Notes: generated by a model from the letters alone, not told the origin. Counted from the first letter of the stretch, positions 39,597 to 54,781 are shown. The stretch is 64,000 nt of DNA from an uncultured Candidatus Saccharibacteria bacterium (GCA_964391935.1 CAYMOA010000002.1:995-64994), one strand, 5' to 3'. Translations and numbers: made by a program.

Positions 39597-39830
39597 ATGA
39601 AAAGTTTAAGAGTGAACTATACAAGAAAATCACAAAAAGCAGAAGACAGAAGTGCATATCTATCTTTTGCAGATGCTGTAAAAAACAAAAGATTTTCCAG
39701 AAAAACTATTTTGAAGAACTTTGGAAAACTTATTCCAACTTATGAATATGACTCTGAGGATAAAAGACTGCTAATTGACCATCTCTATGAATTGTCAAAC
39801 CCCACTGTGGAGAGCCAAATTGAAGACTAA
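39597..39830 (+). pseudogene. Serine recombinase N-terminal fragment (remnant)
   Basis: RVNYTRKSQKAEDRSAYLSF parallels the catalytic-Ser region DDYYRKSSRAEDKQALSLDGQ of the full-length recombinase at 40030. Only 77 aa. Confidence 0.5.
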
Positions 39831-39918
39831 AATGCTCAATTAGGAATTTAAAAGTTACAAGTTGATTCAGATATCATCTTAGTAAGTTACAACATTAAAA
39901 ACCGTGTTAAACTAACAC

Positions 39919-40026
39919 TGCTACACCATAGAAAATTACAAGAATAACAATTATTTTTGTAAGTAAAAACGAGACAATGACCTCTATGGTGTAGCAACTA
40001 AAAAGCGTCGTTGTCTCATTTTTACT
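39919..40026. repeat. Nested inverted repeats immediately upstream of the serine recombinase gene (candidate att/recombination site)
   Basis: Outer 21-bp IR aagtaaaaacgagacaatgac / gtcgttgtctcatttttactt (2 mismatches). Inner IR tgctacaccatagaaa / tctatggtgtagca. Confidence 0.45.
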
Positions 40027-40029
40027 TAT

Positions 40030-41727
40030 ATGGATAAAATAAAAAGCAAATTTAACACATTATTGATTGATGACTATTACCGAAAGTCATCTAGAGCAGA
40101 AGATAAGCAAGCTTTGTCACTTGATGGACAAGAGGAGGAAGCCAAAAAAGCTAGAGAAATGTATGGGATTCCTAAAGCCCTTAATACATACAAAGAATCC
40201 CGTTCAGCTAAATACGCAGGAAAAAGAGTTCTTTATTCTGAAATGAAAATGAGAATTGTTAAGGGAGAAATAAATTGTATTTTTGCTTGGCACTTAAATC
40301 GTATTGCAAGAAATATGACAGAGGCAGGTGAGCTAATTGATTGGGTAAGTGATGGCAAGCTTATTGTAATAACTTTTTATGACAATCAAATAGAGGTTTA
40401 CGATGAAGATTCTGACACTTCTGTAATGGCACAAAAATTTGGTGCAAATAAACAATACTCTCACACCTTAAGTAAAGATGTTAAAAGAGGTCAAAGAACT
40501 AAAGCAAAACTTAAAGGATTACCCCAAGGTTTAGCAACTATTGGTTATAAAAATTCAAAGCAAGGCGAAAAGGGAGAGCGTTGGTGGTATGTAGATGAAG
40601 AAAGACTTTGGAAGATTAAAAAACTTTTTGAACTTTTTTTAACAGGTAGATATTCAATTGGTAAACTCCATAAATACGCAACAGAAGAACTGAAACTTAC
40701 TACCCCGTCACATAAAACTTTAGGAGGGAAACTGGTTACCAGAGAGTATCTAGGAAAGATTTTACATAATCCAATCTTTGCTGGCTTCTTTTTTGTTCAA
40801 GGTGAAAGATACACCCTTGATAAAAATCTTCCCAGAATAATTACAGTAAGCGAACACAATAAAATCAAACTCATTCTCACAAGTCGTTGTAACCCTAAAG
40901 TCCAAAAACACGAAGCAGTATTTTCGGGATTTATCAAATCTGATACAGGAGATTTTATTGGACAGGATATAAAACGCCAACTTTGGTGTGATTGCCGACA
41001 TAAATTTGCCTATCGTGACAAAAAGAACTGCCCTAAATGTAACAGAAAGATTGATGAGCTAGATAATCCTGAATATTTTATTCAAAATTATTATTACAAT
41101 AATCGCAAAAAGAAAGCAGGACTTGAATATAAATCAATAACAGAGGAAAGGATTACCAATGAGATAATTGAATATGTAGAAGAGAATTTAAAACTTCCCT
41201 TTTCTTTATTGGAATGGACTAAAAAACATATATACGAACTCAAAGACCAAGAAGTTTCTGATAGCCTCAACATAGAAAAAGATAAGGGACTCAGAAAGAC
41301 TGATTATGAAAATAAAAAGAAAAATGCCACAAAGCTATTTATTGAAGGAAAAATAAATGAGGAAGAGAGAAAGCAATTTTTACTTGATGTTGAAAATGAA
41401 TACACTGACTTAAATGAAAACAATACTCCTAAAATAAACTGGGTTGAAAAATTAGAAGAAATTATTGATGTAACAGTTTCAATAAAAAATGTACTGACAA
41501 ATGGTGACTTTGAAGCCAAAAGAGTTCTTTTAACTAGATTAGGTTCGCACTGGACTTGGGACGACAAAAACCTCTTAATTTACAACGCTAAATCAGTAAA
41601 CACTTTCTCAGATGGAATAAAAACCGTAAAACCAATTTTATCAAAGTTCGGCAACAGAAAAGCCCTTGTAGAACAAGAGCTTTCTGACGAAAACAGTGAA
41701 CTTTGTATCACCCTGCGGGCCATGTGA
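40030..41727 (+). CDS. Large serine recombinase (resolvase/invertase N-domain + recombinase domain + zinc ribbon)
   Basis: Catalytic-Ser region YYRKSSRAEDKQ, motif WHLNRIARN (R-x-x-R), C-terminal CDCRH…CPKCNRK zinc ribbon. 565 aa. Confidence 0.8.
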   Translation: MDKIKSKFNTLLIDDYYRKSSRAEDKQALSLDGQEEEAKKAREMYGIPKALNTYKESRSAKYAGKRVLYSEMKMRIVKGEINCIFAWHLNRIARNMTEAGELIDWVSDGKLIVITFYDNQIEVYDEDSDTSVMAQKFGANKQYSHTLSKDVKRGQRTKAKLKGLPQGLATIGYKNSKQGEKGERWWYVDEERLWKIKKLFELFLTGRYSIGKLHKYATEELKLTTPSHKTLGGKLVTREYLGKILHNPIFAGFFFVQGERYTLDKNLPRIITVSEHNKIKLILTSRCNPKVQKHEAVFSGFIKSDTGDFIGQDIKRQLWCDCRHKFAYRDKKNCPKCNRKIDELDNPEYFIQNYYYNNRKKKAGLEYKSITEERITNEIIEYVEENLKLPFSLLEWTKKHIYELKDQEVSDSLNIEKDKGLRKTDYENKKKNATKLFIEGKINEEERKQFLLDVENEYTDLNENNTPKINWVEKLEEIIDVTVSIKNVLTNGDFEAKRVLLTRLGSHWTWDDKNLLIYNAKSVNTFSDGIKTVKPILSKFGNRKALVEQELSDENSELCITLRAM

Positions 41728-41977
41728 GTTAAGTACCCCAGCTTCCTTACCCCACAAGGCTTTTCTGGGAATAATTTTAGCTTGAAAATTAGACAGGTGA
41801 GTCACTATGAAATGCCAACAAATGCCAAAAAACTAGGAGTACTATTGACGTGCTTAGATCAGTATTTCCTTAATTTAATCCTTATAAAATAAAGGTTTTA
41901 TAGGAAACAAGAATTTAATACCTTAGAAGCGTTTTGGCATTTAAATTACTATTGACATTGTTAATTTATTATTGTAT

Positions 41978-42643
41978 TTAGTAGAAGGAGTTGTCTTCTT
42001 TGGAAACATAGAAATCAATTCTAGCCTTACCACTATCACCAAACTTATCATCAAAAGAAACTATTGGCGGTTTACCTCGGGCTGAAAATTCTAGAGTCTT
42101 AAACAAATAGCCTAAAAACGATCCGGTATATCTGTATCTGTATATACAACCAGTAATTTGGTCAGACACTTCATCTGGGTATCCCTTCCATTTATGGATT
42201 TGAGGATATTTATCAATCCAATCATTTACTATATAGCTTACCCAAGAAACTAGTTCGTCTTTAGCTTTTAGATTTCCTTTTTGCGAAAGCCTAACAAGGG
42301 ATATAGTTATATTATTACAAATTTTTTGTTCTCTCTTGTTACTTTGAGTCAAAAATAGATAGAGTTTATCTCTGTACTTTTCAAGTACTTTTTCCACTTG
42401 TTCTTTATTGGAGTAAAAGTTAATTTTCTTTCTCTTGTACCTTATCCATCTTCTTTGGAAACTTTTGTCCAATTTTATAGTTACTTTATCCCAGTCTACA
42501 TCTCCATTTTCCGTACGAAATTTTTTGCTAAAAAAGTTGTAAAGTGGCTGGGATTGTTTAAAGATCCAAGAACTAGAAAAAACGCTTGGATTTTCTTTAG
42601 CTAGGATTGTATTTAGTTTGTATATAGCTTTTTTAGAATTCAA
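41978..42643 (-). CDS. Hypothetical protein
   Basis: 221 aa ORF, no recognised motif. Confidence 0.45.
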   Translation of the reverse strand: MNSKKAIYKLNTILAKENPSVFSSSWIFKQSQPLYNFFSKKFRTENGDVDWDKVTIKLDKSFQRRWIRYKRKKINFYSNKEQVEKVLEKYRDKLYLFLTQSNKREQKICNNITISLVRLSQKGNLKAKDELVSWVSYIVNDWIDKYPQIHKWKGYPDEVSDQITGCIYRYRYTGSFLGYLFKTLEFSARGKPPIVSFDDKFGDSGKARIDFYVSKEDNSFY

Positions 42644-42644
42644 T

Positions 42645-43262
42645 CTATATATATTTTAACAAATTATTGTCGTTAATTTTCCTAAACATTGCCTCCTCAC
42701 TTACTCTGTACCTTATCGCTAGTTCCTTCACATTTTTTATCGTCTTCAGATCTGTTTTAAGTATATCGGTTGGCATCAAAAGATCTGCGGCAAAAATATT
42801 TGCATCTATTTCTATGTCTGATTTACCGCTACCAAGTATATGTGTAGTATTAAAAATCAAATGTCCTAGTTCATGGGCAATACTGAATCTTTGGTGACAG
42901 TATGGTTTCGCAGGGTTATAGCCCAACGTGTAAATTTCCTCGTTTAAAAGTTTTGTTTTTACTATTTGTGCAGAAATTCTACTCGTAAAGTCTGGATTTG
43001 GTAAAATATCTAGAATGTACAAATCTGCATCATTTAAAAACTCTTGAATCTTTAACAGGTCAACTGGGATGACACCTATCTTCGATAGCTTCAATAATCT
43101 TTTAGCCAAATTTTTTGCACCTTTTTTATGGATGTTTGAAACTTTAAATTCCACTTCGTCTGCAAACCTAGTCTTCTTTGGTTGAAAGTGATCGAAACTG
43201 TCTTCTATCACTTCTTCACTATTTTCTTTTTCTCTTTGCATGATTTTCTTTTGCCATTTCAA
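42645..43262 (-). CDS. ImmA/IrrE-family zinc metallopeptidase
   Basis: HELGHLIFN (HExxH), directly downstream of and overlapping an XRE HTH gene. Confidence 0.7.
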   Translation of the reverse strand: MKWQKKIMQREKENSEEVIEDSFDHFQPKKTRFADEVEFKVSNIHKKGAKNLAKRLLKLSKIGVIPVDLLKIQEFLNDADLYILDILPNPDFTSRISAQIVKTKLLNEEIYTLGYNPAKPYCHQRFSIAHELGHLIFNTTHILGSGKSDIEIDANIFAADLLMPTDILKTDLKTIKNVKELAIRYRVSEEAMFRKINDNNLLKYI

Positions 43263-43566
43263 TGAATCTCATAATAGCTTCTTTATCCTCTGTACCTAGG
43301 TTAGCATCGGCTCTTAGTGCATACTCCACTTGTATAGATTCATATTTCTCTCCTAAAAAATATTTGATGTCCTTTTTTAAAAACTTAGCGATCTTTTCCA
43401 AGTTTTCCACAGTTATCTTCCTCTCTCCCTTCTCTATTAAAGATATAGCAGAAGCTGACTCAAATTCTAGTTCCTTAGCTAAAAGAGTCTGAGACATGCC
43501 TGCGTCCTCTCGAGCCGTCTTTATCCTATCTCCTATGTACTGTGCTTTGGTTATATCATTTTGCAT
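43219..43566 (-). CDS. XRE-family helix-turn-helix transcriptional regulator
   Basis: MSQTLLAKELEFESASAISLIEKGERKITVENLEKIAKFL is an HTH_3 domain. Confidence 0.75.
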   Translation of the reverse strand: MQNDITKAQYIGDRIKTAREDAGMSQTLLAKELEFESASAISLIEKGERKITVENLEKIAKFLKKDIKYFLGEKYESIQVEYALRADANLGTEDKEAIMRFIEMAKENHAKRKRK

Positions 43567-43756: not shown

Positions 43757-44689
43757 ATGCAAATCAACAAAAAACGGATCTATAGTCTAAATAATAATTT
43801 ACCCAACAGTCTGCGAGATAAAGTCTTCGTACCTGCAATCATTCTGGATGCAACGGCCGACAAAAAGAAAATCTTTAACCTCGGTTTTACTGAAAAAATG
43901 GAAATCGGGGAAACATTGCTACCCTCATCGGTAGGTGCGGTTAGTCGCTTTAATACAGAAGGAAGAGATATCCCAGACAAGACAAAACCAAAAGTAACAA
44001 AGTATTATGAAGTTGAATGGACTCGCAAAGAATGGGCTGGCAGAGGTCAGACGAGAGACGTGACAAGTATAATCACAAGATCTAGACAGGTTTGGCAAAG
44101 AAATTTTATACCCCCTCCATCGATATCACTCTCAATAACAAAGAAGGAAGATGGGAAAGTTTACATAAGTACCCCCAAGACAAAATTTACAAGCGACGAA
44201 GAAGACGCACTACACAAAATTAATTTGATACTTGAAATATTTGATACTTGCTACGTTTTAAATGAAGAAAGTGTGCCAATTCTTAAAAACTCTATTTTAT
44301 TAAATTGGAAAGTCTTACCACCTGGAAAGAGACCTTGGAAAGAACAGAAGAAAGAACTGGAACAGTTTTTCAATGCTCAAAAAAGCAAAAACGTTAAGCC
44401 GGTTCTTGAATCTAGACTCGAGGAAATCAACGAACTACAGCCGGAGTTTACTGCAATTGGAAATCAAGGGTACCGAGGTTATGTTGTATTTGGATTTCCA
44501 AAGAAAAAAATCTACATCCTTGAATCAGCCTTTTACGGAAATGCAATCTATGTTTTTAAAGATGACTGGGAAGGTTTGTCCAAAAAAACCAAGGCAGAAA
44601 TTCTAAATGCTAAGTTGCAACTCATCCGGATTACTCACACGGGTGAGAAAATAAACTGGTTAGAAAAAATTAGAGGACTGTTAAAATAA
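43757..44689 (+). CDS. Hypothetical protein
   Basis: 310 aa ORF, first gene of a rightward block. Confidence 0.45.
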   Translation: MQINKKRIYSLNNNLPNSLRDKVFVPAIILDATADKKKIFNLGFTEKMEIGETLLPSSVGAVSRFNTEGRDIPDKTKPKVTKYYEVEWTRKEWAGRGQTRDVTSIITRSRQVWQRNFIPPPSISLSITKKEDGKVYISTPKTKFTSDEEDALHKINLILEIFDTCYVLNEESVPILKNSILLNWKVLPPGKRPWKEQKKELEQFFNAQKSKNVKPVLESRLEEINELQPEFTAIGNQGYRGYVVFGFPKKKIYILESAFYGNAIYVFKDDWEGLSKKTKAEILNAKLQLIRITHTGEKINWLEKIRGLLK

Positions 44690-44697
44690 AAAATTAT

Positions 44698-46008
44698 ATG
44701 AATCAAGAAACAATAGTAGACAAGTTAGTCTGGGTTCCTGCAAAGAGGAAAATATCAATTTTAAAACCATCCGAATACAATCCTCGCAAGATGACAGAAA
44801 ACGAAAAGAGAGATATTGAAAACTCTATTGATGGTTTTGGCCGTGTTGTACCACTTGTAGTGAATATAGGTTCTCGGGAAAATATCTTAATCGGAGGCCA
44901 CCAAAGATGGAAAATATACAAGGAAAAGAAGATTGAAGAAGTGGATGTAGTCATACCAAATCGAGAACTCACACTTGATGAGGAAAAAGAACTGAATCTT
45001 AGGTTAAATAAAAACCTTGGATCTTGGGATCAAGACTTACTCAAAGAAATGGATTTAGACCTCCTTTTAGGGGTTGGTTTCGGCGATGAAGAGTTGCAGT
45101 CTTTATTCGACAATGTGGAAGTGACAGAAGATGATTTTGATTTGGAAAAAGCAATTAAAGAGATTACCGAGCCTAGAGTTAAGACAGGAGAAATCTGGGA
45201 ACTTGGAAATCACCGACTGCTCGTAGGTGATTCTACTAACGAGGTACAGGTTAAACAATTAATGCAAACTGAGCTGGCGGATATTGTGTATTGTGACCCT
45301 CCTTACAATATCGGACTAGACTATTCCAAAGGCATTGGGAACTCTGAGAAATATGGGGGCAACTATTCAGGAAAAGATGATTCTAAGGGAGATAAAGAAT
45401 ACGGTACGTTCTTAGAGGAAAGTATTTCTGTTTCTAAATTGATTTCCAAACCAAATACGCACTTCTTTTATTGGTGTGATTCTAAGTACATTTGGCTAGT
45501 GCAAACCCTATACCAAAAATTTAGCATAACAAACAAAAGAGTTTGTCTATGGATAAAAAATAACCAGAACCCAACTCACAAAATTGCGTTTAATAAAGTT
45601 TACGAGCCATGCGTGTATGGGATCATTGGGAAACCATACCTGAATGCTGGTTTTAATAATGCAAATGAAGTGCTGAACCAAGAAGTTGGGAGCGGTAACC
45701 AAGTGCATGAAGAAATTTACGACATGATTGATTTATGGATTGCTAAAAGAGACCAGACCACGGAGTATCTGCACCCAACTCAAAAACCAGTAACTCTTAA
45801 TGAAAAGCCATTAAAAAGATGTTCTGCTCCTGGACATATTGTCTACTCTGGTTTTGCTGGAAGCGGAAGCGACTTAATCGCCTGCGAAACTCTAAACCGA
45901 AAGTGGAGAGGTGTGGAGCAAGATCTAATCTTTGCAACCATTGTGATCGATAGATGGGAAAAGTTTACTAATCAAAAAGCCAAACTACTTTATGGAAACA
46001 ATAAATAA
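44698..46008 (+). CDS. ParB-like nuclease domain fused to DNA methyltransferase (beta-class N6A/N4C)
   Basis: N-terminal KISILKPSEYNPRKMTE…GGHQRW (ParB/Srx fold). Motif IV CDPPYNIG and C-terminal motif I SGFAGSGS. Confidence 0.75.
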   Translation: MNQETIVDKLVWVPAKRKISILKPSEYNPRKMTENEKRDIENSIDGFGRVVPLVVNIGSRENILIGGHQRWKIYKEKKIEEVDVVIPNRELTLDEEKELNLRLNKNLGSWDQDLLKEMDLDLLLGVGFGDEELQSLFDNVEVTEDDFDLEKAIKEITEPRVKTGEIWELGNHRLLVGDSTNEVQVKQLMQTELADIVYCDPPYNIGLDYSKGIGNSEKYGGNYSGKDDSKGDKEYGTFLEESISVSKLISKPNTHFFYWCDSKYIWLVQTLYQKFSITNKRVCLWIKNNQNPTHKIAFNKVYEPCVYGIIGKPYLNAGFNNANEVLNQEVGSGNQVHEEIYDMIDLWIAKRDQTTEYLHPTQKPVTLNEKPLKRCSAPGHIVYSGFAGSGSDLIACETLNRKWRGVEQDLIFATIVIDRWEKFTNQKAKLLYGNNK

Positions 46009-46741: not shown

Positions 46742-46745
46742 ATTT

Positions 46746-47138
46746 ATGGGAAATGAGGGTAACAAAGACAATGGAAGAAGACCTAATGTATACAAGACAC
46801 AAGATTTTGAATCCTATGTTCTTTGGAAGTCCCTACCCTCGTTTCTTAGAGGTCAGCCAAGGGTGGTTTTAGAAAAATTTGGCTTATGCGATGACATTCT
46901 AACAGAATTATTACAAATTAAAACACAAACCGAATTTGCTACCAAGCACGGGATCAAAGATCTTGGAACATTGACCGACTGGAACAAGAAGATTGAAAAA
47001 GATGGATTACTTCAACCGCTGAATTCTTGGGCAAGAAAATTAACACCCAATGTAATCTTCGCCTTATACAAAAATATTACTAAAAATGGTCGAGCCCAAG
47101 AAGTAAAAGCTTGGTACGAAATTATAGAAAATAACTAA
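46746..47138 (+). CDS. Hypothetical protein
   Basis: 130 aa ORF. Confidence 0.45.
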   Translation: MGNEGNKDNGRRPNVYKTQDFESYVLWKSLPSFLRGQPRVVLEKFGLCDDILTELLQIKTQTEFATKHGIKDLGTLTDWNKKIEKDGLLQPLNSWARKLTPNVIFALYKNITKNGRAQEVKAWYEIIENN

Positions 47139-47139: not shown

Positions 47140-47346
47140 ATGCAAAATTTAAATAATCAAATGAGTTTAGAGGAAATCAACCAAATACTTTCAGATACAC
47201 TAAGAAACGTAGTGGAAAGAAAGATTTCACTCAAACACGCAGGTACAATTTCTAAACTTGCAACTGGAATTACTAAAATAATCACCACTACAGAGCTTAA
47301 AGATCGTATAGAACTACTAGAGCAAATCTTAAAAAAGAAGAAATAA
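47140..47346 (+). CDS. Hypothetical small protein
   Basis: 68 aa ORF, tightly packed with neighbours. Confidence 0.4.
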   Translation: MQNLNNQMSLEEINQILSDTLRNVVERKISLKHAGTISKLATGITKIITTTELKDRIELLEQILKKKK

Positions 47347-47347
47347 T

Positions 47348-48835
47348 ATGAAAAATTTAACAAACATAATTAGAACGGGTGAAATGTCTCCAAAAGAAAG
47401 ATTTTTACTTTTGGTACAAAATGACGTACACAAAGACAAATATAAAAAACAAATCCTGACAGAGGCAGATAAACACGCCCTTTCTGATGGGTGGAAACCC
47501 AAGGATAACTTTGAAGTAAAGGAGTACAACAAGTACTGTGAAGCTTGGAGAGTTGAGGGAGAGTTGAGAACAGCACTACAAATTCACCACCTTGATACAC
47601 AAAATAAAATATTGAGAAGTAGCAAAGTAGTTGAGTATGCTTTGTGGAATAAATTCGAAAGCTTTAATAAATTTCAAAATACATTTGAAGTAAACGAGTT
47701 GGAAGCACTAGCAACTCTTCTAAAGAATAGTGGACTTGAATATGACAAGGTTATACATGGTCTAACTTTCCATAATATGCCAAACGGCTTAAAAGAAGAT
47801 ATTTTAGCCCTATACCCTGATGCCAGAACTGAAATAGACTATCTGGAGGAGGAAGAAATATTATTCAAATATTTTCAAAACAATAAAATGCTAAACAAAG
47901 AAGAAATTCAAAATCTGACAAATGAGATAGTTAGTCAGATTCCATGGGATTATGTTGACTTCTTAATCAACAAAGATAAAGACGTGTTAGGCATATTGTT
48001 CAATGGATACTTTGCAGGGTTGCCACTTATACAAGTAGCGAAAAAATGGGCAAGCCTAAATCAGGTAATCTATAATGATGAAGACGATTTGAGAGTTCAG
48101 TTAGCCAAAGAAAAAGATCTGAAAGATGTATTTAAAAGTACCATATTAAGATACTTAGAAGACGGTCTTTTTATAAGTGAATACACTCCGTTATGTAATA
48201 GCACTAGCAGAGCAACCTGTAATAACAAAGATACAAAACAAACTCACCAGGAAGTTATTACAGCTTGGATAAAAGAGAAACAAAAATCGAAAGAATTAAT
48301 AGAAAATCTAATAAATAAAGGTGATTTAAAAGTAGAAAATAAAGAAAGAAAACTATTCACAATTACAAAAAAGTATAAATTGATATCAGGAGAAAGTTTA
48401 TACAACCTTGGTGATGAGTATTTATTTGCGAAGGATTTCAAAAGACAGGTAGATAAACTTGCATGCTTCAATAAATTAATCCAATTTTTAAAAGAAAGAA
48501 AGTTTATTGAAATGATAAACGAAATTGGATCATACGCACGCATTTATACAAAACTAAGTAAAGTATTTGAAACGGATTTTTCATACATAACTGTCGACAT
48601 AGAAGGAAGTCTGAGTGAGGAGATTAACTTACTCAAAACAGAACTAACAATGATATACGAAAATGTTTTATTTGAGGTCTACAAAATATGTGAACCCAGT
48701 TTTTTAATTGAAATATTTACCGAAGATATATTAGAAGACCTTACAAAAAAAGAAGTAATAAATAGTGAGATCATACAAATATTAGATGCGAAATACGCCA
48801 AAATCTTTGGGGAACAGCTGTGGAAAGGACTATAA
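47348..48835 (+). CDS. Hypothetical protein
   Basis: 495 aa ORF, no recognised motif. Confidence 0.45.
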   Translation: MKNLTNIIRTGEMSPKERFLLLVQNDVHKDKYKKQILTEADKHALSDGWKPKDNFEVKEYNKYCEAWRVEGELRTALQIHHLDTQNKILRSSKVVEYALWNKFESFNKFQNTFEVNELEALATLLKNSGLEYDKVIHGLTFHNMPNGLKEDILALYPDARTEIDYLEEEEILFKYFQNNKMLNKEEIQNLTNEIVSQIPWDYVDFLINKDKDVLGILFNGYFAGLPLIQVAKKWASLNQVIYNDEDDLRVQLAKEKDLKDVFKSTILRYLEDGLFISEYTPLCNSTSRATCNNKDTKQTHQEVITAWIKEKQKSKELIENLINKGDLKVENKERKLFTITKKYKLISGESLYNLGDEYLFAKDFKRQVDKLACFNKLIQFLKERKFIEMINEIGSYARIYTKLSKVFETDFSYITVDIEGSLSEEINLLKTELTMIYENVLFEVYKICEPSFLIEIFTEDILEDLTKKEVINSEIIQILDAKYAKIFGEQLWKGL

Positions 48836-48850
48836 TATAGACGACATTTG

Positions 48851-48935
48851 GACACCTGAGACATTCCTTAACTTTATCTAGGCACTTGCGTCATCAATAT
48901 GTGTATGAAAATAGAGTTAAATACAAATCAAGCAC
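48851..48935. repeat. Direct repeat copy A (~75 bp) containing a remnant recombinase 5' end
   Basis: gacacctgagacattccttaactttatctaggcacttgcgtcatcaatatgtgtatgaaaata… is ~88% identical to 53425-53510. Encodes MKIELNTNQ… then stop, versus MKIQTNKQP in the intact gene. Confidence 0.6.
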
Positions 48936-49004: not shown

Positions 49005-51317
49005 CTATAGAATCTTATTGCCTGAAATAGTTACCCATTCCTGGTTTTTAAAGATCATAATTCCACCAAATAATTTCTGAGTTTTGCGGTTTTTGTTGTC
49101 ACTTAGAATATATTTTTGCAAAGCTTCGTTTTTGGCTTTAGTGTAAGTATCTTCATCTCTGTCTTCTTCGTCCTTAGTTTCAAAGATTCCAATTCTGCCA
49201 TCAGAAAATTCTACAAGATAATCTGGATAAAAAGTATAGACCTCACTTTTATATTCATATTTAATCCCAAAATAATCTCTTCGCATTTCGCCATTTTTGT
49301 ACCACCAATTTATGTTGTTTAGACTCTCTAAATGTTTCTCAAAGTTCCTTTCAGGATTAGATCTATTCTTCGATAAAAAACAAGGTTGGAGTAGGTGCTT
49401 AGAATAATTTTTAATTTCCTCATCAACGTCCTTATTAAAATAATCTGATTCAGCAATTTCAAAATTTTCAATTTTGTGCTCTGTGTCTTCTTTTGCCTTT
49501 TTCTCTCTAACTAGAGAATACTTTTCAACTGCTTTTAGGAAGATGGGTTTAATGTTATTTTTATTCATTAAAAGAAAGGCCTGAGAACTCAAGGCACCAT
49601 TTTGTACTACTTCCTCGCCAAACAGGTCTCTACAGGCCAAAAACCATGCCACATTCATCGCAGAGACCGATCTGACAATGTTGGTAAAGGGTGCCATCAT
49701 ACTTTTAAATAGTGATTTAGAAATGAACTCAATTTGCCTGTCATTTACATTTAAAGATTGCACTACTCCGTCGTCATCTTCAAACACATTTTTGTAATTA
49801 TCTACTTCTGTCACTTCAAGTGCCAAATCTTTGATTACTTCATGTGAAATATTTACCACATCGAATTGCCAACCCTTATCCCCGTGAACATTACTTTTGA
49901 TATTATTTAGAATTTTGATATTGTTTTTAAAATCTCCAACTTTTAAATCGGACGAAGTTATAAACTGATCAAGTAAAACTTTTCGGAAATCTGCTTTAAT
50001 ATCTTGATAGTCTGCACGTTCTTTGTAGAAGGACGTTAACTTAATTGGTTTGTATTTGTCACTTCTCTTTGATGGTTGGTCACCCAGAATTTTAGGACTG
50101 TAATTTTCAATATCAAAGCTAGCACTGCTGGTATTGGTATATACATAGGCTTTGTTTAATTTGACATCTTCATAATACATTTGCTCAGGCATTCTTAAAA
50201 TTCTACCTAATACTTGAATATTAAAGATTTCGCTTTCACTTTCTCTAAATTTAAGTAATATCTGTGCACGAGGACAATCCCATCCTGTATCGATAGCTTG
50301 TTTGAAAATTAAATATTCTTGAGGTGCATTGTTTTTAGAAATATTTTCTAAATTTCTATCTTCCTCTTTTTCTTCATCTAACCAAATAGATAGTCTTTCA
50401 TCCCCCAATTTTATCCCTTTATTTTTTTCTAAATATTGGAGCACTGTATTTTTCACAACCTCACCATTTTGACTATTGGGCAGTTGAATTAGTAAGAGTG
50501 GATTGACATCAATATTATTGTTTTTGTAAACCTGTGCAAGCTCATCTCTTTTAGCAATTGCCGTACTCAAAATCGCTTCGTCACTATCCTCAGTCTTCTT
50601 AAAGTTAAAATCAAAATTTACCAGTATTTGATCCTTTATCATTTCCTCGTCAATCACATCTTGGGGATTTATTTTTTCAATCCAACCCTTACCCTCAATT
50701 ATATCATCGGCAGATAATTTAATGATAGGAGTAGCTGACACTTCTATAGTTACAGTAGGACTGATAAGATCAATAATTTCTTTGCCTCTATCAGCACTCG
50801 TGTGACTATGAGATTCATCAATTATTAGTATTATTTTTCTATCTCTTCCTATTGTATTGTTTAAAATCTCTCGGAAGTTTGTGTGATCACCATCTTTCAT
50901 TACTATATTTTTCCACTCTTGAGTTTTACCATCCTTTGCTCTAATTTTTTCCCAGTTAACTACCATCACAGAATCTTTTAATAACTCATATTGAGAGGTA
51001 CCAAAAACCGTATCAATACTTTGAACTACAGGATACCCTGAAAATACATTTTCCAATGATCTCTTGCTTTGATTGTGTAAATCTCCTTTACCAATAGATA
51101 GCCAAATAAAGGTAAAATCTAATTTTCTATTCTCCTCCTTACTTTTATTCACCAAAGACTCAATAATACTAGCCATCATAATAGTTTTACCAGAACCAGT
51201 TGGGGCTTGTAATACAGCTGTCTTTTTGTCTCTCTTATCTGACTGTAAAAAACTGCTAACTTTTTCTGTTAAGTTTTTCACTGCTTTTTCTTGATAATTT
51301 TTAAGATTTATTTTCAT
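49005..51317 (-). CDS. Type III restriction enzyme Res subunit (SF2 helicase-like)
   Basis: Walker A LQAPTGSGKTIMMA, DExH LIIDESHSH. 770 aa, immediately downstream of the Mod gene. Confidence 0.8.
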   Translation of the reverse strand: MKINLKNYQEKAVKNLTEKVSSFLQSDKRDKKTAVLQAPTGSGKTIMMASIIESLVNKSKEENRKLDFTFIWLSIGKGDLHNQSKRSLENVFSGYPVVQSIDTVFGTSQYELLKDSVMVVNWEKIRAKDGKTQEWKNIVMKDGDHTNFREILNNTIGRDRKIILIIDESHSHTSADRGKEIIDLISPTVTIEVSATPIIKLSADDIIEGKGWIEKINPQDVIDEEMIKDQILVNFDFNFKKTEDSDEAILSTAIAKRDELAQVYKNNNIDVNPLLLIQLPNSQNGEVVKNTVLQYLEKNKGIKLGDERLSIWLDEEKEEDRNLENISKNNAPQEYLIFKQAIDTGWDCPRAQILLKFRESESEIFNIQVLGRILRMPEQMYYEDVKLNKAYVYTNTSSASFDIENYSPKILGDQPSKRSDKYKPIKLTSFYKERADYQDIKADFRKVLLDQFITSSDLKVGDFKNNIKILNNIKSNVHGDKGWQFDVVNISHEVIKDLALEVTEVDNYKNVFEDDDGVVQSLNVNDRQIEFISKSLFKSMMAPFTNIVRSVSAMNVAWFLACRDLFGEEVVQNGALSSQAFLLMNKNNIKPIFLKAVEKYSLVREKKAKEDTEHKIENFEIAESDYFNKDVDEEIKNYSKHLLQPCFLSKNRSNPERNFEKHLESLNNINWWYKNGEMRRDYFGIKYEYKSEVYTFYPDYLVEFSDGRIGIFETKDEEDRDEDTYTKAKNEALQKYILSDNKNRKTQKLFGGIMIFKNQEWVTISGNKIL

Positions 51318-51327
51318 GGATTTGTTT

Positions 51328-53157
51328 TTATTTATTGTTACTATTATTTTTTAATATTGTCTCGTATATTTCTAGAATCTTTTGAGGTATTTCTTCTATG
51401 TTTATACCTTTCCATTTTCTATAATCGTCAATAAAGTCATCCACATTTCTAAGCGAGAAAATATATGCACTTTTGTCTAAGTCATCTTGATTTTTAAGAT
51501 CAGCTCTCATATCGTCTAAATAACTATCATCTAAATCGTAATAAATGCCAATTGTATGTTTTATAGTTTTTCTATTTTCAACTTTTACTCCACTAAATAT
51601 TTTGTACATCAAAGTATCACCATCTTTAACTTCTTTTTCTAAATTAAATGCATTTTCTTTTAAACAGAGCATTTCTGTACAAGCTCGCATCAATCTCATT
51701 TTCATATTGTCGGTGTGTTTTGTACGATCAATGAAGTCTGTTTCCAAATATTTTAAATTTCCACCAAGCTCATCTTTTTCCATAATATTGGAAAGTCTTT
51801 TAAACGTTACCTCTTCACAGATTTTATGCTCACTTTTTTCATCGCCATTATTGGTCACTAAAATAAACTGACGATTTCCTTTATCTTCTTTATTGAGACT
51901 TAAAACAGCATGTGCAGTTGATCCAGAACCTGCGAAGAAATCCAAAACCGTAGAGCAATCATTAGAAACCCATTTTATTAATTGTTTTATAAGTCTGATA
52001 GGCTTTTTACCATTTTTAAATTCTACATCTCCTTCTTTTTCAACATTCATCATATCCGAGTAAAACCCTTTCCAAAGATCACCCCTTATTGAGCATCTTG
52101 CAAACTCACCACCGAAGTCATCAGACTTTTTTAACCCATCACTTAGAAATGCTAATTGTTGAATTTTTCCAGTACCTGTCTTAGTTAAAAAGTAACCCCT
52201 TATATTTACGACAGCCCCAATTTTTATTTTCTTTTTTTCCTGATCAGACAATGAGATATCACAATCCATAAGTCTGCAAATCTTATCTGCATATTTGTAA
52301 AATTCTTCTTTAAATTCTGGTATAAGACTGCATAGAGTCTCAATAGAATTGACCGAAAAACTTTTTACTTGTTTTAGTATTTTATACTTGTCAATAAATA
52401 CACTTAGGGTTGGAAGACTTAATATACTGCTAATATTTTTTAGATCGCCATCGTAAAAAAGATTATAGTGGGAGTCGTAATAATTAATTTTGTCATACAA
52501 TAAATTTTTAACAATTTTCTTATTTTTACTTTTTGAGAACATTAGAACATATTCATAATTCTTAACCACCGACCCATTTTGGGCCGACCTAACTTTCATT
52601 CCTTGTGTTTTTGTTAGTTCTACACCAATATTTGCTACAAACGAATTTATACCAAACACCTGATCACACAATAATTTTAATTCTGCTTGTTGATTGTTGT
52701 CTATACTCACAAATAATGTACCATTATCTGATAGTAAAGATTCAGCAAGTAATAATCTTTTCTCCATAAACGACAACCACTTACTATTTCTGAAACTATC
52801 TTCAGAGTCTACAAACTTATCGTTGTAAATAAAATCCTTGTTGCCAGTATTGTATGGTGGATCGATATAAATTACATCAATAGAATTTTTATGCGTATAA
52901 TTAAGAACAGAAAGTGCATGATAATTATCACCCTCAATTAAAATATTTGTGGGTTTATTTTTATCATTTATTATTTCTTTGAACTTCTTTCCTTCCTTAA
53001 CTTTAAGCACAGGAAATTTTGTGTTGCATTCCTCAACTACCTTTTCAGGCTTATCTTCCCAAACTAAACCGTATTTACTTTTTTGTTTAAGTTTTTTATT
53101 TTCTTCTTCTAATTCTAAAATTCTGTGAGTAAGATTTACATCTAAATTTGATGACAT
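51328..53157 (-). CDS. Type III restriction-modification Mod methyltransferase (beta-class)
   Basis: Motif IV VIYIDPPYNTG N-terminal to motif I LDFFAGSGSTAHAV. 609 aa. Confidence 0.8.
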   Translation of the reverse strand: MSSNLDVNLTHRILELEEENKKLKQKSKYGLVWEDKPEKVVEECNTKFPVLKVKEGKKFKEIINDKNKPTNILIEGDNYHALSVLNYTHKNSIDVIYIDPPYNTGNKDFIYNDKFVDSEDSFRNSKWLSFMEKRLLLAESLLSDNGTLFVSIDNNQQAELKLLCDQVFGINSFVANIGVELTKTQGMKVRSAQNGSVVKNYEYVLMFSKSKNKKIVKNLLYDKINYYDSHYNLFYDGDLKNISSILSLPTLSVFIDKYKILKQVKSFSVNSIETLCSLIPEFKEEFYKYADKICRLMDCDISLSDQEKKKIKIGAVVNIRGYFLTKTGTGKIQQLAFLSDGLKKSDDFGGEFARCSIRGDLWKGFYSDMMNVEKEGDVEFKNGKKPIRLIKQLIKWVSNDCSTVLDFFAGSGSTAHAVLSLNKEDKGNRQFILVTNNGDEKSEHKICEEVTFKRLSNIMEKDELGGNLKYLETDFIDRTKHTDNMKMRLMRACTEMLCLKENAFNLEKEVKDGDTLMYKIFSGVKVENRKTIKHTIGIYYDLDDSYLDDMRADLKNQDDLDKSAYIFSLRNVDDFIDDYRKWKGINIEEIPQKILEIYETILKNNSNNK

Positions 53158-53158
53158 A

Positions 53159-53310
53159 ACAGGGATGGGTTTTGTCTATTAATATTCTAACGAGAAACAC
53201 TAAGCCCCACGTTAGCTTGAGTCTTGCGACTCCAAAAATTAGTTTCCTAATAATTGACCATCCCTGATCAGCTGAACGTGGGGTTCAGTATAGGGATGGA
53301 TTTTATTTGT
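53159..53310. repeat. Interleaved inverted/direct repeats between Mod and the recombinase (candidate recombination site or structured leader)
   Basis: cagggatgg / ccatccctg and ccccacgttagc / gctgaacgtgggg are interleaved. Direct repeat agggatgggttttgtctatt / agggatggattttatttgtg. Confidence 0.4.
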
Positions 53311-53424
53311 GCCATATTTTGAAAAACTTAGGCAACTATATTGTTAAAGAATTATACCATATTTTGGTATGGTGCCATTCTAATATAATCCAAGGGAATT
53401 GTGTAGTCTACTTGTCTACATATA

Positions 53425-53510
53425 GACACCTGAGACGCTCCTTGACTTATCTAGGCACTTGCGTCATCAATATAGGTGTATGAAAATACAAACAAATAAA
53501 CAACCAGAGA
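53425..53510. repeat. Direct repeat copy B (~75 bp) spanning the promoter and 5' end of the serine recombinase gene
   Basis: gacacctgagacgctccttgacttatctaggcacttgcgtcatcaatataggtgtatgaaaata… matches copy A at 48851. Confidence 0.6.
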
Positions 53511-54781
53511 TAGAGGAAAAATTGAGGTATTGCCTTTACTGTAGAAAAAGTAGTGAATCAGAAGAACGCCAAGTAATGAGTATAGACTCTCAAATTAAGG
53601 AAATGCTCAATTTGGCAGAGCGAGAAAAACTAGAAATAGTAAATATCAAAAGAGAGGCTCATAGTGCAAAAGAAACAGGGCAAAGACCCGTCTATAACGA
53701 AATGATCAAGGATTTAAAAGAAGGAAAATTCAATGCAATTCTTACTTGGGCACCTGACAGAATATCTAGAAACGCAGGAGACTTGGGTATGGTTGTAGAC
53801 TTAATGGATCAAAAGGTTTTAAAAGAAATTAGAACTCACTCACAAACATTTACTAATAACCCAAATGAAAAATTCTTGCTGATGATTTTAGGATCACAAG
53901 CAAAATTAGAAAACGATAACAGAGGAATAAATGTTAAGCGTGGGCAAAGAACAAAAGTTGAGCTTGGCTTTTGGCCTGGACTCGGACCTCTTGGATATTT
54001 AAATCAAAGATCCATGGACAAAAAAGGAGTGCTCATAGTAGACCCAGATAGAGCCCCTATTGTGAAGAAAATATTTGAGAAAGTTGCTTATGAATACCAG
54101 TCAGGAAGGAAAATTTATAACTGGCTACGAGAAGTGAATTTTTATACCAGAGGTAACAAACCACTAACCTTAGGTGGAGTTTATAGAATTTTAGACAACA
54201 CCTTTTATCATGGAGTATTTGAATATCCAAAAAGATCAGGTAATTATTTTACTGGAAAACATGAACCATTAATCAGCAAAGAGTTATGGGATAAGGCTCA
54301 GGAATTTTTAAAAAGAGACAAGATTGTACGATCGAATAAAGAATTTACTTTTACCAAATTAATTGTTTGCGGTTATTGTGGAAGTGGAATTTCTGCTGAG
54401 GAAAAATACAAAAACTTAAAAAATGGAACACAAGCTAGATATATATACTACGGCTGTGGCAGGAGTAAAGATAGGAATTGCAAAAATAAATATATTCAAG
54501 AGGTTGAACTTATAGAAGAACTAATAAAAATAGTTGATAAGGTCAATGTTGACGAGATAGGACTAAAGGTAAAAATGGAAGAAGAAATTAAAAGATTTAA
54601 TATTTTTCAGAGGTCAATACTAAATACAAAAGAAAAGTTTGAATTGCCGAAGGCAACTGTAGTAAAGAATTATCTAAAATATATTTTGAAAGAGGGAAGC
54701 AAAACTGAAAAAAGAGAGGTCTTGGGAAATCTAAGAAGTAGAATCAGTTACAAGGATAAAGAATTAACTTTAGTAAGTTAA
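53480..54781 (+). CDS. Large serine recombinase
   Basis: Start moved to the ATG (MKIQTNKQ…). Catalytic-Ser region YCRKSSESEERQ, WAPDRISRN, Cys cluster CGYCGSG…CGRSKDRNC. Confidence 0.8.
   Translation: MKIQTNKQPEIEEKLRYCLYCRKSSESEERQVMSIDSQIKEMLNLAEREKLEIVNIKREAHSAKETGQRPVYNEMIKDLKEGKFNAILTWAPDRISRNAGDLGMVVDLMDQKVLKEIRTHSQTFTNNPNEKFLLMILGSQAKLENDNRGINVKRGQRTKVELGFWPGLGPLGYLNQRSMDKKGVLIVDPDRAPIVKKIFEKVAYEYQSGRKIYNWLREVNFYTRGNKPLTLGGVYRILDNTFYHGVFEYPKRSGNYFTGKHEPLISKELWDKAQEFLKRDKIVRSNKEFTFTKLIVCGYCGSGISAEEKYKNLKNGTQARYIYYGCGRSKDRNCKNKYIQEVELIEELIKIVDKVNVDEIGLKVKMEEEIKRFNIFQRSILNTKEKFELPKATVVKNYLKYILKEGSKTEKREVLGNLRSRISYKDKELTLVS

What the first reader, a model, noticed from the sequence alone, without database searches (positions are those of the whole stretch)
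39597..54781. Recombinase-bounded variable island with serial remnants: four serine-recombinase 5' ends, two of them truncated
Two full-length large serine recombinases (40030, 53480), a 77-aa N-terminal fragment (39597) and a 10-codon remnant with its promoter (48908-48955) lie on the same strand. The Type III R-M genes are bracketed by ~75-bp direct repeats (48851-48935 and 53425-53510, ~88% identical). Each repeat comprises the recombinase promoter and start codon region. Nested inverted repeats typical of serine-recombinase att sites sit just upstream of the 40030 gene. Together this suggests tandem or nested integration of related elements, or recombinase-mediated cassette exchange. The Type III R-M is the most recently swapped module. 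The island is adjacent to tRNA-Ser(TGA) at 61437-61524, a classical integration target.
Basis: partly seen in the sequence, partly recalled or inferred. Interest (0 to 1): 0.62.

Follow-up and report, generated by a model that had tools for sequence, protein, structure and literature searches.

The report
Stacked recombinase islands at tRNA-Ser
This stretch of a Patescibacteria chromosome is a defence-gene island built by two different serine-recombinase elements inserted one after the other at the end of a serine tRNA gene, with a restriction-modification module that comes and goes inside the second element; this is a familiar kind of genome architecture, seen here in a poorly studied phylum.

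Summary
The gene for the 565-aa recombinase (rec40) normally ends inside tRNA-Ser(TGA). Four relatives show this, and one keeps the window's right-flank genes. In the window, 19.7 kb (41719-61442) sits exactly at that joint, flanked by GCGG. This insert (element B) carries the 433-aa recombinase (rec53). Its conserved left-end motif recurs beside rec53-type genes in six other genomic contexts, each with a different left flank. In a sister population both of B's ends have alternative junctions.

Inside B, the Type III R-M operon lies between a ~75-bp direct repeat (87% identical, 27 nt exact). The repeat is the rec53 upstream region plus four codons. Four related contigs (two lineages) lack the R-M, and another lineage has it without the left repeat.

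Two claims fail. The 77-aa ORF is an intact member of a small-protein family, not a recombinase fragment. The inverted repeats before rec40 are interleaved, covarying helices with G-U pairs, so they look like an mRNA leader, not an att site.

Verdict: a new member of a known kind, tandem accretion of integrative elements at a tRNA gene.

The parts
36676..38093 (+). Cargo on the rec40 side: a CBASS-type oligonucleotide cyclase (36676-37560) followed by a 176-aa partner ORF
   Evidence: PADLOC Cyclase E=3.8e-88. Pfam SMODS weak. CD_NTase_C recorded for the same protein.
39069..39230 (+). p53, a small ORF conserved upstream of every rec40 homologue examined
   Evidence: tblastn gives 41-45% identity to the 54-60 aa ORFs upstream of rec40 homologues in L049, L052, L053 and L054.
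39597..39830 (+). ORF77, an intact member of a small-protein family of unknown function. It is not a recombinase fragment.
   Evidence: phmmer against 1.84 billion representatives gives 139 hits at E<=0.001 including ORF77 itself; nearly all are small proteins of roughly 50-150 aa. In the 30 I aligned the match runs from the first residue to the end. Family alignment A4 shows the YTRKS stretch is in a variable region. No Pfam or PHROG hit. Absent from the other fetched loci.
39920..40029 (+). Conserved rec40 leader with two interleaved helices. Helix A: 39920-39931 with 39984-39995. Helix B: 39959-39981 with 40007-40029, ending at the ATG.
   Evidence: The DNA is conserved in loci whose proteins are only 57-66% identical. 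95.7% of cells pair, 7 of 35 pairs show double changes, one U-G pair is invariant and four more pairs include G-U in some sequences, and 0 of 500 shuffles match. Fold z-score is -6.65.
40030..41727 (+). rec40, a large serine recombinase whose family normally ends inside tRNA-Ser(TGA)
   Evidence: Pfam Resolvase. PHROG 95 integrase. 201 further proteins match at E<=1e-5; the 119 best listed are 42-66% identical. Invariant Y16 R18 S20 and CDC...CPxC. Overlap with the tRNA in L049, L052 and L054, and apparently L051 (cut by the contig end).
41715..41832 (.). Left junction and left-end motif of element B: GCGG (41715-41718), GCCATGTGA, GTTAAGTACCCC, about 70 nt, then AAATGCCAAC AAATGCCAA (41810-41828)
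   Evidence: Similarity to the empty-site locus L054 stops after GCGG. The same motif follows different left flanks in L020/21, L030, L055, L056/60 and L061, and sits at the first base of contigs L057 and L059. The tandem 10-mer was also found by TRF.
41978..43566 (-). Element B regulatory-looking genes: p221, an M78/ImmA-like peptidase and an HTH_3 repressor-like protein
   Evidence: Pfam Peptidase_M78 E=1.2e-16 and HTH_3 E=1e-13.
43757..48835 (+). Element B core operon: p310, ParB_N-DNA methylase, DNA methylase, p130, p68 and the hypervariable p495
   Evidence: Pfam. Synteny is kept in L016, L020-L023 and L055-L058, with p495 only 29-32% identical while its neighbours are 47-77%.
48844..48916 (+). 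Repeat copy c1: an orphan copy of the rec53 upstream module plus 4 codons. The ATG is at 48905 and the 15-codon ORF runs to 48952. It lies directly after the p495 stop, where relatives without R-M have their rec53 gene.
   Evidence: nhmmer with a model built from relatives gives E=2.3e-13. Collinearity with the L023 and L020 intergenic region.
49005..53157 (-). Type III restriction-modification operon: res 49005-51317 and mod 51328-53157
   Evidence: Pfam ResIII E=1.6e-20 and N6_N4_Mtase E=4.1e-33. Absent in L020-L023, present in L016/L018. The central part of mod is not conserved.
53418..53491 (+). Repeat copy c2: the upstream module and first codons of the intact rec53 gene
   Evidence: The module is conserved upstream of rec53-type genes in relatives.
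53480..54781 (+). rec53, a large serine recombinase and the inferred integrase of element B
   Evidence: Pfam Resolvase, Recombinase and Zn_ribbon_recom. PHROG 95 integrase E=3.1e-67. All 8000 scored candidates reach E<=1e-10, and the 120 best listed are 69-100% identical; source-named hits are Patescibacteria. Co-occurs with the B end motifs.
54790..61131 (.). Right-hand cargo of B: a vWA protein (-) and a diversity-generating retroelement. RT 56859-57851 (-), Avd-like 57863-58234 (+), template repeat 58262-58393, variable repeat 58726-58857 at the 3' end of the AAA_5 gene 58720-61131 (-).
   Evidence: Pfam. Repeat D1. The two TR/VR mismatches are both at TR adenines on the coding strand.
61345..61442 (.). 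Right arm next to the tRNA: a decayed tRNA-3'-like fragment (about 61345-61360), two CCGATAA-type arm motifs, then ...GTGTTGGCGG (GCGG at 61439-61442)
   Evidence: Comparison with L017 and L016. The arm is conserved next to tRNA-Ser in L017, L030 and L003. Similarity to L054 resumes at GCGGAAGC.
61437..61524 (-). tRNA-Ser(TGA), the integration target. The HNH and p162 genes beyond it are syntenic with L054.
   Evidence: ARAGORN. Rfam. HNH 59% and p162 53% identical in L054.

Best explanation
The finding covers most of a composite genomic island built by serial site-specific insertion at the 3' end of tRNA-Ser(TGA) in a Patescibacteria chromosome.

Layer A is the rec40 unit: variable defence cargo (here a CBASS cyclase), the small gene p53, a structured leader, and the recombinase gene rec40. 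In related genomes the rec40 reading frame runs into the tRNA gene and stops in its T-arm.

Layer B is a 19.7-kb element (41719-61442) inserted exactly at the rec40/tRNA joint. It is flanked by the 4-nt core GCGG. The insertion replaced the last rec40 codons and regenerated the tRNA end. B carries its own recombinase, rec53. It also carries repressor/protease-like genes, two DNA methylases, unknown genes, a Type III R-M operon, a vWA gene and a DGR. It has no phage structural or conjugation genes.

I infer that rec53 integrated B by recombination between an attP and an attB. The attP would be formed by joining B's ends: ...GTGTTG-GCGG-GCCATGTGAGTTAAGTACCCC.... The attB would be made of the rec40 3' end plus the tRNA 3' end.

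Inside B, the R-M operon is an optional module placed between p495 and rec53. It is flanked by a ~75-bp duplication of the rec53 upstream module. I infer that this arose by recombination between two related rec53-type elements. That event would have left the recipient's rec53 upstream region and first codons as the stub c1. The 27-nt identical core now allows loss of the R-M by homologous recombination.

Shown: the insertion boundaries, the conserved end motifs, the alternative junctions in a sister population, and R-M presence/absence. Inferred: which enzyme acts, the crossover point, the origin of c1, and any current mobility.
For: Empty-site comparison:
- In L049, L052 and L054 the rec40 homologue overlaps tRNA-Ser(TGA) on the opposite strand. 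L051 ends inside the same tRNA-like sequence, too early for ARAGORN to call a tRNA.
- L054 also carries the window's right-flank genes HNH and p162.
- Pairwise alignment places the break after GCGG on both sides of a 19,724-bp insert.

A discrete element with conserved ends:
- The motif GCGG-N9/10-GTTAAGTACCC...AAATGCCAAYAAATGCCAA starts rec53-type elements in L020/21, L030, L055, L056/60 and L061, each with a different left flank. Two contigs begin exactly at its first base.
- L030 is a compact 5.6-kb version: left motif, rec53-like gene, four cargo genes, arm, tRNA-Ser(TGA).
- The arm abutting the tRNA is conserved in the window, L017, L030 and L003.

Junction heterogeneity in the L016 population, where shared DNA is 99-100% identical:
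- The left end abuts either a rec40 C-terminus (L056, L060) or unrelated DNA (L055).
- The right end abuts either a tRNA-Ser fragment plus the tRNA (L017) or the left end of a second, diverged element (L016).

R-M module:
- Absent in L020-L023, where p495 is followed directly by rec53. Present in L016/L018.
- c1 lies where the ancestral rec53 start would be.
- c1 and c2 share a 7-8-nt deletion and CAATAT, against CAATGT in relatives.
- Ancestry is mosaic across the junction. p130 is 65% identical to L016 but 47% to L023. rec53 is 88% to L016 but 93% to L023. vWA is 83% versus 90%.
Against: - No excised circle or empty-site read was observed for this genome. The only other contig with these proteins has the same arrangement.
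- rec53 lies 6.6 kb from the right end and 11.8 kb from the left end of B, so its role as B's integrase rests on co-occurrence only.
- The left flanks of the B motif differ between genomes, and L020 has no tRNA within 10 kb to the right of rec53. Target choice is therefore looser than a single attB, or the arrays are older than they look.
- About 100 bp next to the tRNA contains a decayed tRNA-like fragment and duplicated arm motifs, which I cannot fully order into events.
- L016 has the R-M without c1, and its res C-terminus differs. The order of gain, loss and rearrangement is therefore unresolved.
- Whether layer A is itself mobile is unknown, because no relative with the same flanks but lacking rec40 was found.
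Confidence: 0.72

Rival explanations
1. Site-specific cassette exchange. The conserved module just upstream of rec53 (c1/c2) is a recombination site for rec53. The R-M operon is a cassette that rec53 inserted there, leaving two hybrid sites in direct repeat.
For: - The module is found only beside rec53-type genes and is at least as conserved as the coding sequence.
- It contains an imperfect dyad, TGAGACGC ... GCGTCATCA, read directly from the sequences.
- A sigma-70 scan does not explain it as a promoter.
- Genetic ancestry switches across this point.
Against: - Among about 50 loci searched by nhmmer (some 30 of them carrying a rec53-family gene) the window's c1 is the only clear orphan copy.
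- L016/L018 carry the same R-M with the same right junction but no left copy.
- Serine recombinases exchange at a 2-nt core and are expected to leave very short repeats (review PMC5704250), not 75 bp of similarity.
- c1 has lost 2 nt before the ATG and has TTAACT in place of TTGACT, which looks like decay.
- The ends actually used by rec53-type elements are elsewhere.
Confidence: 0.1
2. Resident landing pad. rec40 is not part of a mobile element. It is a chromosomal fixture next to tRNA-Ser, and together with its structured leader it captures incoming islands such as B at its own 3' end, in the manner of an integron integrase beside attI.
For: - All rec40 homologue contigs that reach past the gene end (L049, L052, L054) abut tRNA-Ser(TGA), and L051 breaks off inside the tRNA-like sequence. 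All five loci keep p53 plus the conserved leader.
- B sits exactly at the rec40 stop in two lineages, the window and L056/L060.
- rec40-family divergence (42-66%) looks more host-like than that of rec53.
Against: - B-type left ends also occur with four other left flanks that lack rec40.
- L030 and L003 have rec53-type elements at tRNA-Ser without any rec40.
- Genes to the left of p53 are variable defence cargo, as expected of a mobile element.
Confidence: 0.1
3. Four recombinase 5' ends, two of them truncated, record repeated integrations. The inverted repeats upstream of rec40 are its att site.
For: - c1 is a genuine orphan rec53 5' end.
- ORF77 carries a YTRKSQKAED stretch resembling the catalytic motif and is the best non-recombinase hit to a rec40 HMM in the window, at E=0.078.
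Against: - ORF77 belongs to a family of intact small proteins in which that stretch is not conserved.
- The repeats covary with G-U pairs and are interleaved, with arms 25 and 52 nt apart.
- The rec40-side junction is at the gene's 3' end.
Confidence: 0.05
4. There is no mobile element. This is a hypervariable chromosomal region reshuffled only by homologous recombination between strains, and the recombinase genes are inactive passengers.
For: - Ancestry along the region is mosaic.
- No circular form was observed.
- No transfer genes are present.
Against: - Breakpoints are base-exact at a conserved end motif with unrelated flanks, and contigs end exactly there.
- The insertion is exact relative to L054 and has a 4-nt core.
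- Both recombinase genes are intact and their family-invariant catalytic residues are present.
Confidence: 0.05

Closest known systems
Tandem accretion of site-specific integrative elements at the 3' end of a tRNA gene (ICE/IME/CIME arrays of streptococci; review PMC5704250, read)
   Same: - Two elements with distantly related integrases (30% identity) sit side by side at one tRNA gene.
- Decayed remnants lie between them.
- A sister genome shows a further element inserted into an att-like site of the resident one.
   Different: - The integrases here are large serine recombinases, not tyrosine integrases.
- There are no relaxase, oriT or conjugation genes.
- The host is a Patescibacteria (CPR) bacterium.
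- According to the review, serine-recombinase IMEs usually disrupt dispensable protein genes, whereas here the tRNA stays intact.
Tycheposons of Prochlorococcus (bioRxiv 10.1101/2020.12.28.424599, read)
   Same: - Cargo islands next to tRNA genes, including tRNA-Ser(TGA).
- Successive integrations push older elements outward.
- Partial tRNAs and fragmented integrases occur as remnants.
- A minority (27 of 937) use a large serine recombinase.
- Populations are heterogeneous for junctions.
   Different: - No homology was tested.
- The elements here lack the replication genes typical of tycheposons.
- The flanking duplication is only 4 nt plus one decayed tRNA-like fragment, not clear partial tRNAs.
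Staphylococcal cassette chromosome (SCC/SCCmec) composite islands (from my own knowledge, not tested here)
   Same: - Large serine recombinase genes lie inside the element, not at its edge.
- Insertion is at the 3' end of a conserved gene without inactivating it.
- Tandem and composite arrays occur, with short direct repeats.
   Different: - The SCC target is rlmH (orfX), not a tRNA.
- SCC usually uses a CcrA/CcrB pair, whereas B has a single recombinase.
- There is no sequence relationship beyond the recombinase superfamily.
Phage-type large serine integrases (PHROG 95 'integrase')
   Same: rec53 matches PHROG 95 at E=3.1e-67 and has the Resolvase, Recombinase and zinc-ribbon architecture.
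   Different: - No phage structural genes lie in or near B.
- Neither family was found in IMG/VR.
- The recombinase gene is not next to an element end.
Type III restriction-modification systems with exchangeable Mod target-recognition domains (from my own knowledge for the general feature)
   Same: - res and mod are adjacent on one strand.
- The central part of Mod is replaced between genomes that are otherwise 99% identical (L016 versus L017) and between the window and L016.
   Different: No simple-sequence repeat that would give phase variation was found in mod or res.

Membership tests
Large serine recombinase (rec53) | N-terminal resolvase catalytic domain with the serine motif, followed by a Recombinase domain and a zinc beta-ribbon | tested here: met
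   PF00239 E=1.2e-20, PF07508 E=1.2e-17 and PF13408 E=9.9e-8. The N-terminus reads ...YCRKSSESEERQ.
Large serine recombinase (rec40) | The same three-part architecture | tested here: inconclusive
   Only PF00239 passes in the window protein. Many homologues also carry PF07508. The family has invariant Y16, R18, S20 and CDC...CPxC cysteines. PHROG 95 covers residues 17-517. A zinc ribbon is likely, but no model matched it.
Large serine recombinase (both) | Catalyses conservative recombination between specific att sites | not testable with these tools
   This needs an in vitro or in vivo recombination assay with the predicted sites.
tRNA-targeting integrative genomic island (element B) | Present in one genome and precisely absent from the same site in a relative (an empty site) | tested here: met
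   L054 has rec40, tRNA-Ser, HNH and p162 contiguous. The window has 19,724 bp between rec40 and the tRNA.
tRNA-targeting integrative genomic island (element B) | Conserved element ends that travel with the integrase into different flanks | tested here: met
   The left-end motif occurs with six different left contexts and the arm lies next to tRNA-Ser in four lineages.
tRNA-targeting integrative genomic island (element B) | Excised circular form or attP junction | tested here: not met
   The one end-to-end joint seen (L016) links B to the diverged left end of a second element. That is a tandem array, not a circle. No read data were available.
Tandem accretion array | Two or more elements with their own integrases, or remnants, adjacent at one target | tested here: met
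   In the window the rec40 unit and the rec53 element are adjacent. In L016 two B-type elements are adjacent. L005 has two rec53-type genes 3.5 kb apart next to tRNA-Ser genes.
Serine-recombinase att site (for the repeats at 39920-40029) | A site of about 40-50 bp with inverted half-sites abutting a central dinucleotide, located at an element boundary | tested here: not met
   The arms are separated by 25 and 52 nt and are interleaved. One invariant and several variable G-U pairs work only on the + strand. The rec40-side boundary is at 41715-41718.
Truncated serine recombinase (for ORF77) | Homology to a recombinase N-terminus that ends at a truncation point | tested here: not met
   HMM E=0.078 over 38 residues. 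The relatives are nearly all small proteins, and the 30 aligned match from the first residue to the end, with conserved residues elsewhere.
Type III restriction-modification system | Adjacent Mod (N6/N4 methylase with an inserted recognition domain) and Res (ResIII helicase-nuclease) | tested here: met
   PF01555 is split over residues 93-424 of Mod, and PF04851 covers residues 2-198 of Res. Activity was not tested.
Prophage (for element B) | Capsid, terminase, portal or tail genes | tested here: not met
   No such Pfam or PHROG hits among the B proteins tested. No relatives in IMG/VR.

The most novel reading that the evidence does not exclude
The rec40 unit (p53, a pseudoknot-like leader RNA, and a recombinase gene whose stop codon lies inside tRNA-Ser) may be a conserved chromosomal landing pad of Patescibacteria. 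It would capture whole defence islands at its own 3' end, with the leader RNA controlling recombinase synthesis. That would be an integron-like capture platform built on a large serine recombinase and a tRNA gene. The rec53-type elements would be its phylum-wide cassettes.
Probability: 0.1. Interest if true: 0.75.

Novelty: new member of a known kind. Interest (0 to 1): 0.5.

Why it matters
Few mobile elements of Patescibacteria (CPR bacteria) have been delimited, and my literature searches found nothing on serine-recombinase islands in this phylum. This locus defines, to the base, the ends and target of a serine-recombinase element family. Its recombinase has thousands of relatives (all 8000 scored candidates reach E<=1e-10); the 120 best listed are at least 69% identical, and those with a source name are Patescibacteria.

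That gives three things:
- An explanation for how defence genes (CBASS, Type III R-M, methylases, a DGR) are stacked and exchanged in these tiny genomes.
- Testable attP and attB sequences that could serve as an integration tool for organisms with almost no genetics.
- A worked example in which assembly breakpoints in metagenomes reveal alternative junctions.

The restriction module flanked by a 75-bp repeat shows how a defence system can be lost or regained without harming the element's own recombinase.

Tried and rejected
- ORF77 as a recombinase fragment. Pairwise BLASTP, tblastn with 240 recombinases and a family HMM gave only marginal signals. The exhaustive phmmer search then showed a separate small-protein family. 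Rejected.
- A longer coding stub in c1. Similarity beyond codon 4 is not above shuffles, with 217 of 2000 as good.
- Long tRNA-derived direct repeats. There is no second match to the tRNA 3' end in the window, even allowing 9 substitutions in 28-29 nt. Only a decayed fragment is recognisable, and only by comparison with L017.
- Known RNA families. Rfam found nothing in the rec40 leader or in the long gaps of relatives.
- A sigma-70 promoter in c1/c2. The scan does not call one on the + strand.
- Viral collection. The rec40 leader pattern gave 0 hits. Both recombinases returned only 25-28% relatives or nothing. Six exact 18-mer matches to the rec53 module were chance hits in GC-rich phage DNA with no rec53.
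- L018's apparently different left context of the R-M. It is a breakpoint inside p495, not at the R-M.
- L016's end-to-end joint as a circle junction. Rejected, because the joined left end differs from B's own left end in the same contig.
- Literature. Searches for Patescibacteria or CPR together with serine-recombinase islands found nothing relevant.

Full report
ORGANISM AND GENE CONTENT
The window is a low-GC (about 33%) bacterial chromosome with housekeeping genes such as CTP synthase, CofD and an ABC transporter. The closest proteins with source names come from Patescibacteria. The finding region contains the following genes:
- rec40 (40030-41727)
- p221, an M78 peptidase and an HTH protein, on the minus strand
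- p310, a ParB-methylase, a methylase, p130, p68 and p495
- Type III res and mod, on the minus strand
- rec53 (ATG at 53480)
- a vWA gene and a diversity-generating retroelement
- tRNA-Ser(TGA) at 61437-61524
An independent Logan assembly of SRR12712864 has the identical arrangement.

CHECKING THE OBSERVATION
The direct repeat is real. It spans 48844-48916 and 53418-53491, with 65 of 75 positions identical and a 27-nt exact core. Each half is unique to these two places, with none expected by chance. The stub ATG is at 48905, and only four codons are demonstrably shared. Both recombinases are full length and are only 30% identical to each other over 242 residues.

The 77-aa ORF is not a recombinase fragment:
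- Its resemblance to rec40 is a 14-residue stretch.
- It scores E=0.078 against a rec40-family HMM.
- An exhaustive search found 138 other cluster representatives, nearly all small proteins of roughly 50-150 aa. In the 30 aligned, the match covers ORF77 from end to end and the recombinase-like stretch is in a variable segment.

THE TYPE III R-M MODULE
Contexts of close rec53 homologues settle the presence/absence question.
- In L020-L022 (85% identical recombinase) and L023 (93%), the p495-like gene is followed directly by rec53, with one copy of the upstream module.
- In L016/L018 (88%) the same R-M lies between p495 and rec53, with the same right junction as the window. But only 12 bp separate the p495 and res stops, there is no left repeat copy, and the res C-terminus differs.
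- c1 lies immediately after the p495 stop, collinear with the intergenic region of L023 and L020. It is therefore the original rec53 start region.
- c1 and c2 share a 7-8-nt deletion and CAATAT, which L016, L020 and L023 lack. They are each other's closest relatives.
- A model of the module finds it upstream of rec53-type genes and, as an orphan, only at c1. It is not a generic promoter.
- A sigma-70 scan does not call it on the + strand. In more distant relatives a TAGACT...GCGTCATCAAT block lies 7-9 nt before the ATG. If that block is a promoter, the mRNA would be leaderless; this is my inference.
- res is 86% identical to L016's res, similar to neighbouring genes (81-95%). The R-M/rec53 linkage is therefore old rather than recent.
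- Ancestry switches across the junction. Genes on the left are closer to L016 (p130 65% versus 47% for L023). Genes on the right are closer to L023 (rec53 93% versus 88%; vWA 90% versus 83%).
- I therefore favour recombination between two related elements as the origin of c1. The repeat is now a substrate for deletion.

THE LARGER STRUCTURE
- rec40 homologues (57-66% identical) in L049, L052 and L054 end inside tRNA-Ser(TGA) on the opposite strand, with their stop codon in the T-arm sequence GGTGAGATTCGAAC. L051 breaks off within the same sequence.
- L054 continues with homologues of the window's HNH and p162 genes. It is an empty-site comparator.
- Alignment shows the window matching L054 up to ...TGTATCACCCTGCGG (GCGG at 41715-41718), and again from GCGGAAGCTGTGAGATTCGAAC (GCGG at 61439-61442).
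- So 19,724 bp are inserted at the rec40/tRNA joint. This changes the rec40 C-terminus to ...LRAM*.

ELEMENT B IS A DISCRETE UNIT
- Its left end (GCGG, 9-10 nt, GTTAAGTACCC, about 70 nt, AAATGCCAAYAAATGCCAA) recurs at the left of rec53-type elements in L020/21, L030, L055, L056/60 and L061, with different DNA to the left each time. Contigs L057 and L059 begin at its first base.
- In the L016 population, L056 and L060 have a rec40 C-terminus (...LCITLRAT*) to the left. L055 is 100% identical from the motif onward but has unrelated DNA to the left.
- At the right end, L017 continues into a 20-nt tRNA-Ser 3' fragment, about 95 bp, and the tRNA. L016 is 99% identical up to ...AAGATACGCA and then continues into the diverged left end of a second element.
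- L030 shows a compact 5.6-kb version ending at tRNA-Ser(TGA). The 35-45 nt abutting the tRNA are conserved in the window, L017, L030 and L003.
- Co-occurrence of these ends with rec53-type genes is my basis for naming rec53 as B's integrase.
- Joining the window's ends gives ...TTGGC-GG-GCCAT..., a short dyad around GG. This is read from the sequence and is an inference.

THE REPEATS UPSTREAM OF REC40
- The roughly 120 nt before the ATG are much better conserved than the protein.
- Two helices (12 and 23 pairs) are interleaved. Across four sequences 95.7% of cells pair and seven pairs change on both sides. Several pairs are G-U or U-G, one of them in all four sequences. No shuffle or slid register reaches these values.
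- G-U pairs fit an RNA made from the + strand, that is, the rec40 leader. They do not fit a symmetric DNA site.
- Helix B ends at the start codon, which suggests control of translation (inference). No Rfam family matches.

COMPARISON WITH KNOWN SYSTEMS
The architecture matches tandem accretion of integrative elements at tRNA genes (PMC5704250). It also matches tycheposon islands, a minority of which use large serine recombinases. The internal position of the recombinase recalls SCC elements (my own knowledge).
The differences are:
- serine rather than tyrosine integrases at a tRNA 3' end
- a recombinase ORF that terminates inside the tRNA gene
- no phage or conjugation genes and absence from IMG/VR
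- the CPR host

VERDICT
It is a new member of a known kind. Interest is moderate (0.5), mainly for CPR mobile-element biology and as a source of testable att sites.

Noticed in passing
window 39920-40029; L049 9850-10000; L052 6590-6762; L054 1700-1859: The rec40-family leader has two interleaved, covarying helices in a pseudoknot-like order (A1-B1-A2-B2) that end at the start codon. No Rfam family matches. It is a candidate cis-regulatory RNA of a recombinase gene.
   Followed up: partly
L049 9461-9870; L052 6240-6620; L054 1356-1720: Relatives have a 365-410-nt GC-richer non-coding stretch between p53 and the rec40 leader, with apparent covariation (for example GAGAGG/CCTCTT versus GAAATG/CATTTC). 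RNAalifold finds 9 of 26 pairs with double changes in three sequences. The window's equivalent gap is different and holds ORF77.
   Followed up: partly
window 39597-39830: ORF77 belongs to an uncharacterised family of small proteins, nearly all of roughly 50-150 aa (139 cluster representatives including itself). The consensus is MKS...FA.AVKGK.FSR.TI...F.KLV.K.DY...DK..LI.HLY.LSN. There is no Pfam or PHROG match.
   Followed up: partly
window 56859-61131: A complete diversity-generating retroelement: RT, an Avd-like protein, a 132-nt template repeat (58262-58393) and a variable repeat (58726-58857) at the 3' end of an AAA_5 ATPase gene. Both mismatches are at template adenines. A vWA gene lies next to it.
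   Followed up: partly
window 36458-36583 (-): A LOOT RNA (Rfam RF03000, 61.7 bits, above its threshold) lies just left of the CBASS cyclase, near the likely left edge of the island.
   Followed up: no
window 36676-38093: A CBASS-type cyclase (PADLOC E=3.8e-88) with a 176-aa downstream ORF. In L049 the corresponding position left of rec40 holds a Type I R-M with a SduA_C (Shedu-like) gene. The rec40 side is therefore also a defence-gene slot.
   Followed up: partly
window 47348-48835; L016 4085-5572; L020 8428-9978; L023 2344-3885: p495 is hypervariable. It is 29-32% identical between elements whose neighbouring genes are 47-95% identical. It matches no family in Pfam, PHROGs or PADLOC.
   Followed up: no
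window 51783-52644; L016 8566-9168; L017 280-1010: The central (target-recognition) part of the Type III mod gene is replaced between L016 and L017, which are otherwise 99% identical, and between the window and L016. This implies different methylation specificities within one population.
   Followed up: partly
window 53480-54781: The rec53 family is unusually uniform. All 8000 scored candidates reach E<=1e-10 and the 120 best are 69-100% identical; the hits named by a source are Nomurabacteria, Komeilibacteria and Paceibacteria. Its cargo, by contrast, diverges freely. This suggests recent phylum-wide spread.
   Followed up: partly
L062 6837-16891; L063; L064: Homologues of p310 (61% identical) sit inside a Type I R-M operon between hsdM/DUF3800 and DUF6119/hsdS/hsdR. 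This hints that p310 is a defence-associated gene.
   Followed up: no
L005 1921-3240 and 5417-6733: Two rec53-type genes on one strand lie 2.2 kb apart (starts about 3.5 kb apart), with three minus-strand genes between them and tRNA-Ser genes 2.7 kb downstream. This is a natural example of the two-recombinase state from which a stub like c1 could arise.
   Followed up: no
window 41810-41832: A tandem 10-mer, AAATGCCAAC AAATGCCAA, lies about 90 nt inside B's left end. It is conserved in every B-type left end found, including the distant L030. It may be a binding site for an accessory or regulatory protein.
   Followed up: no
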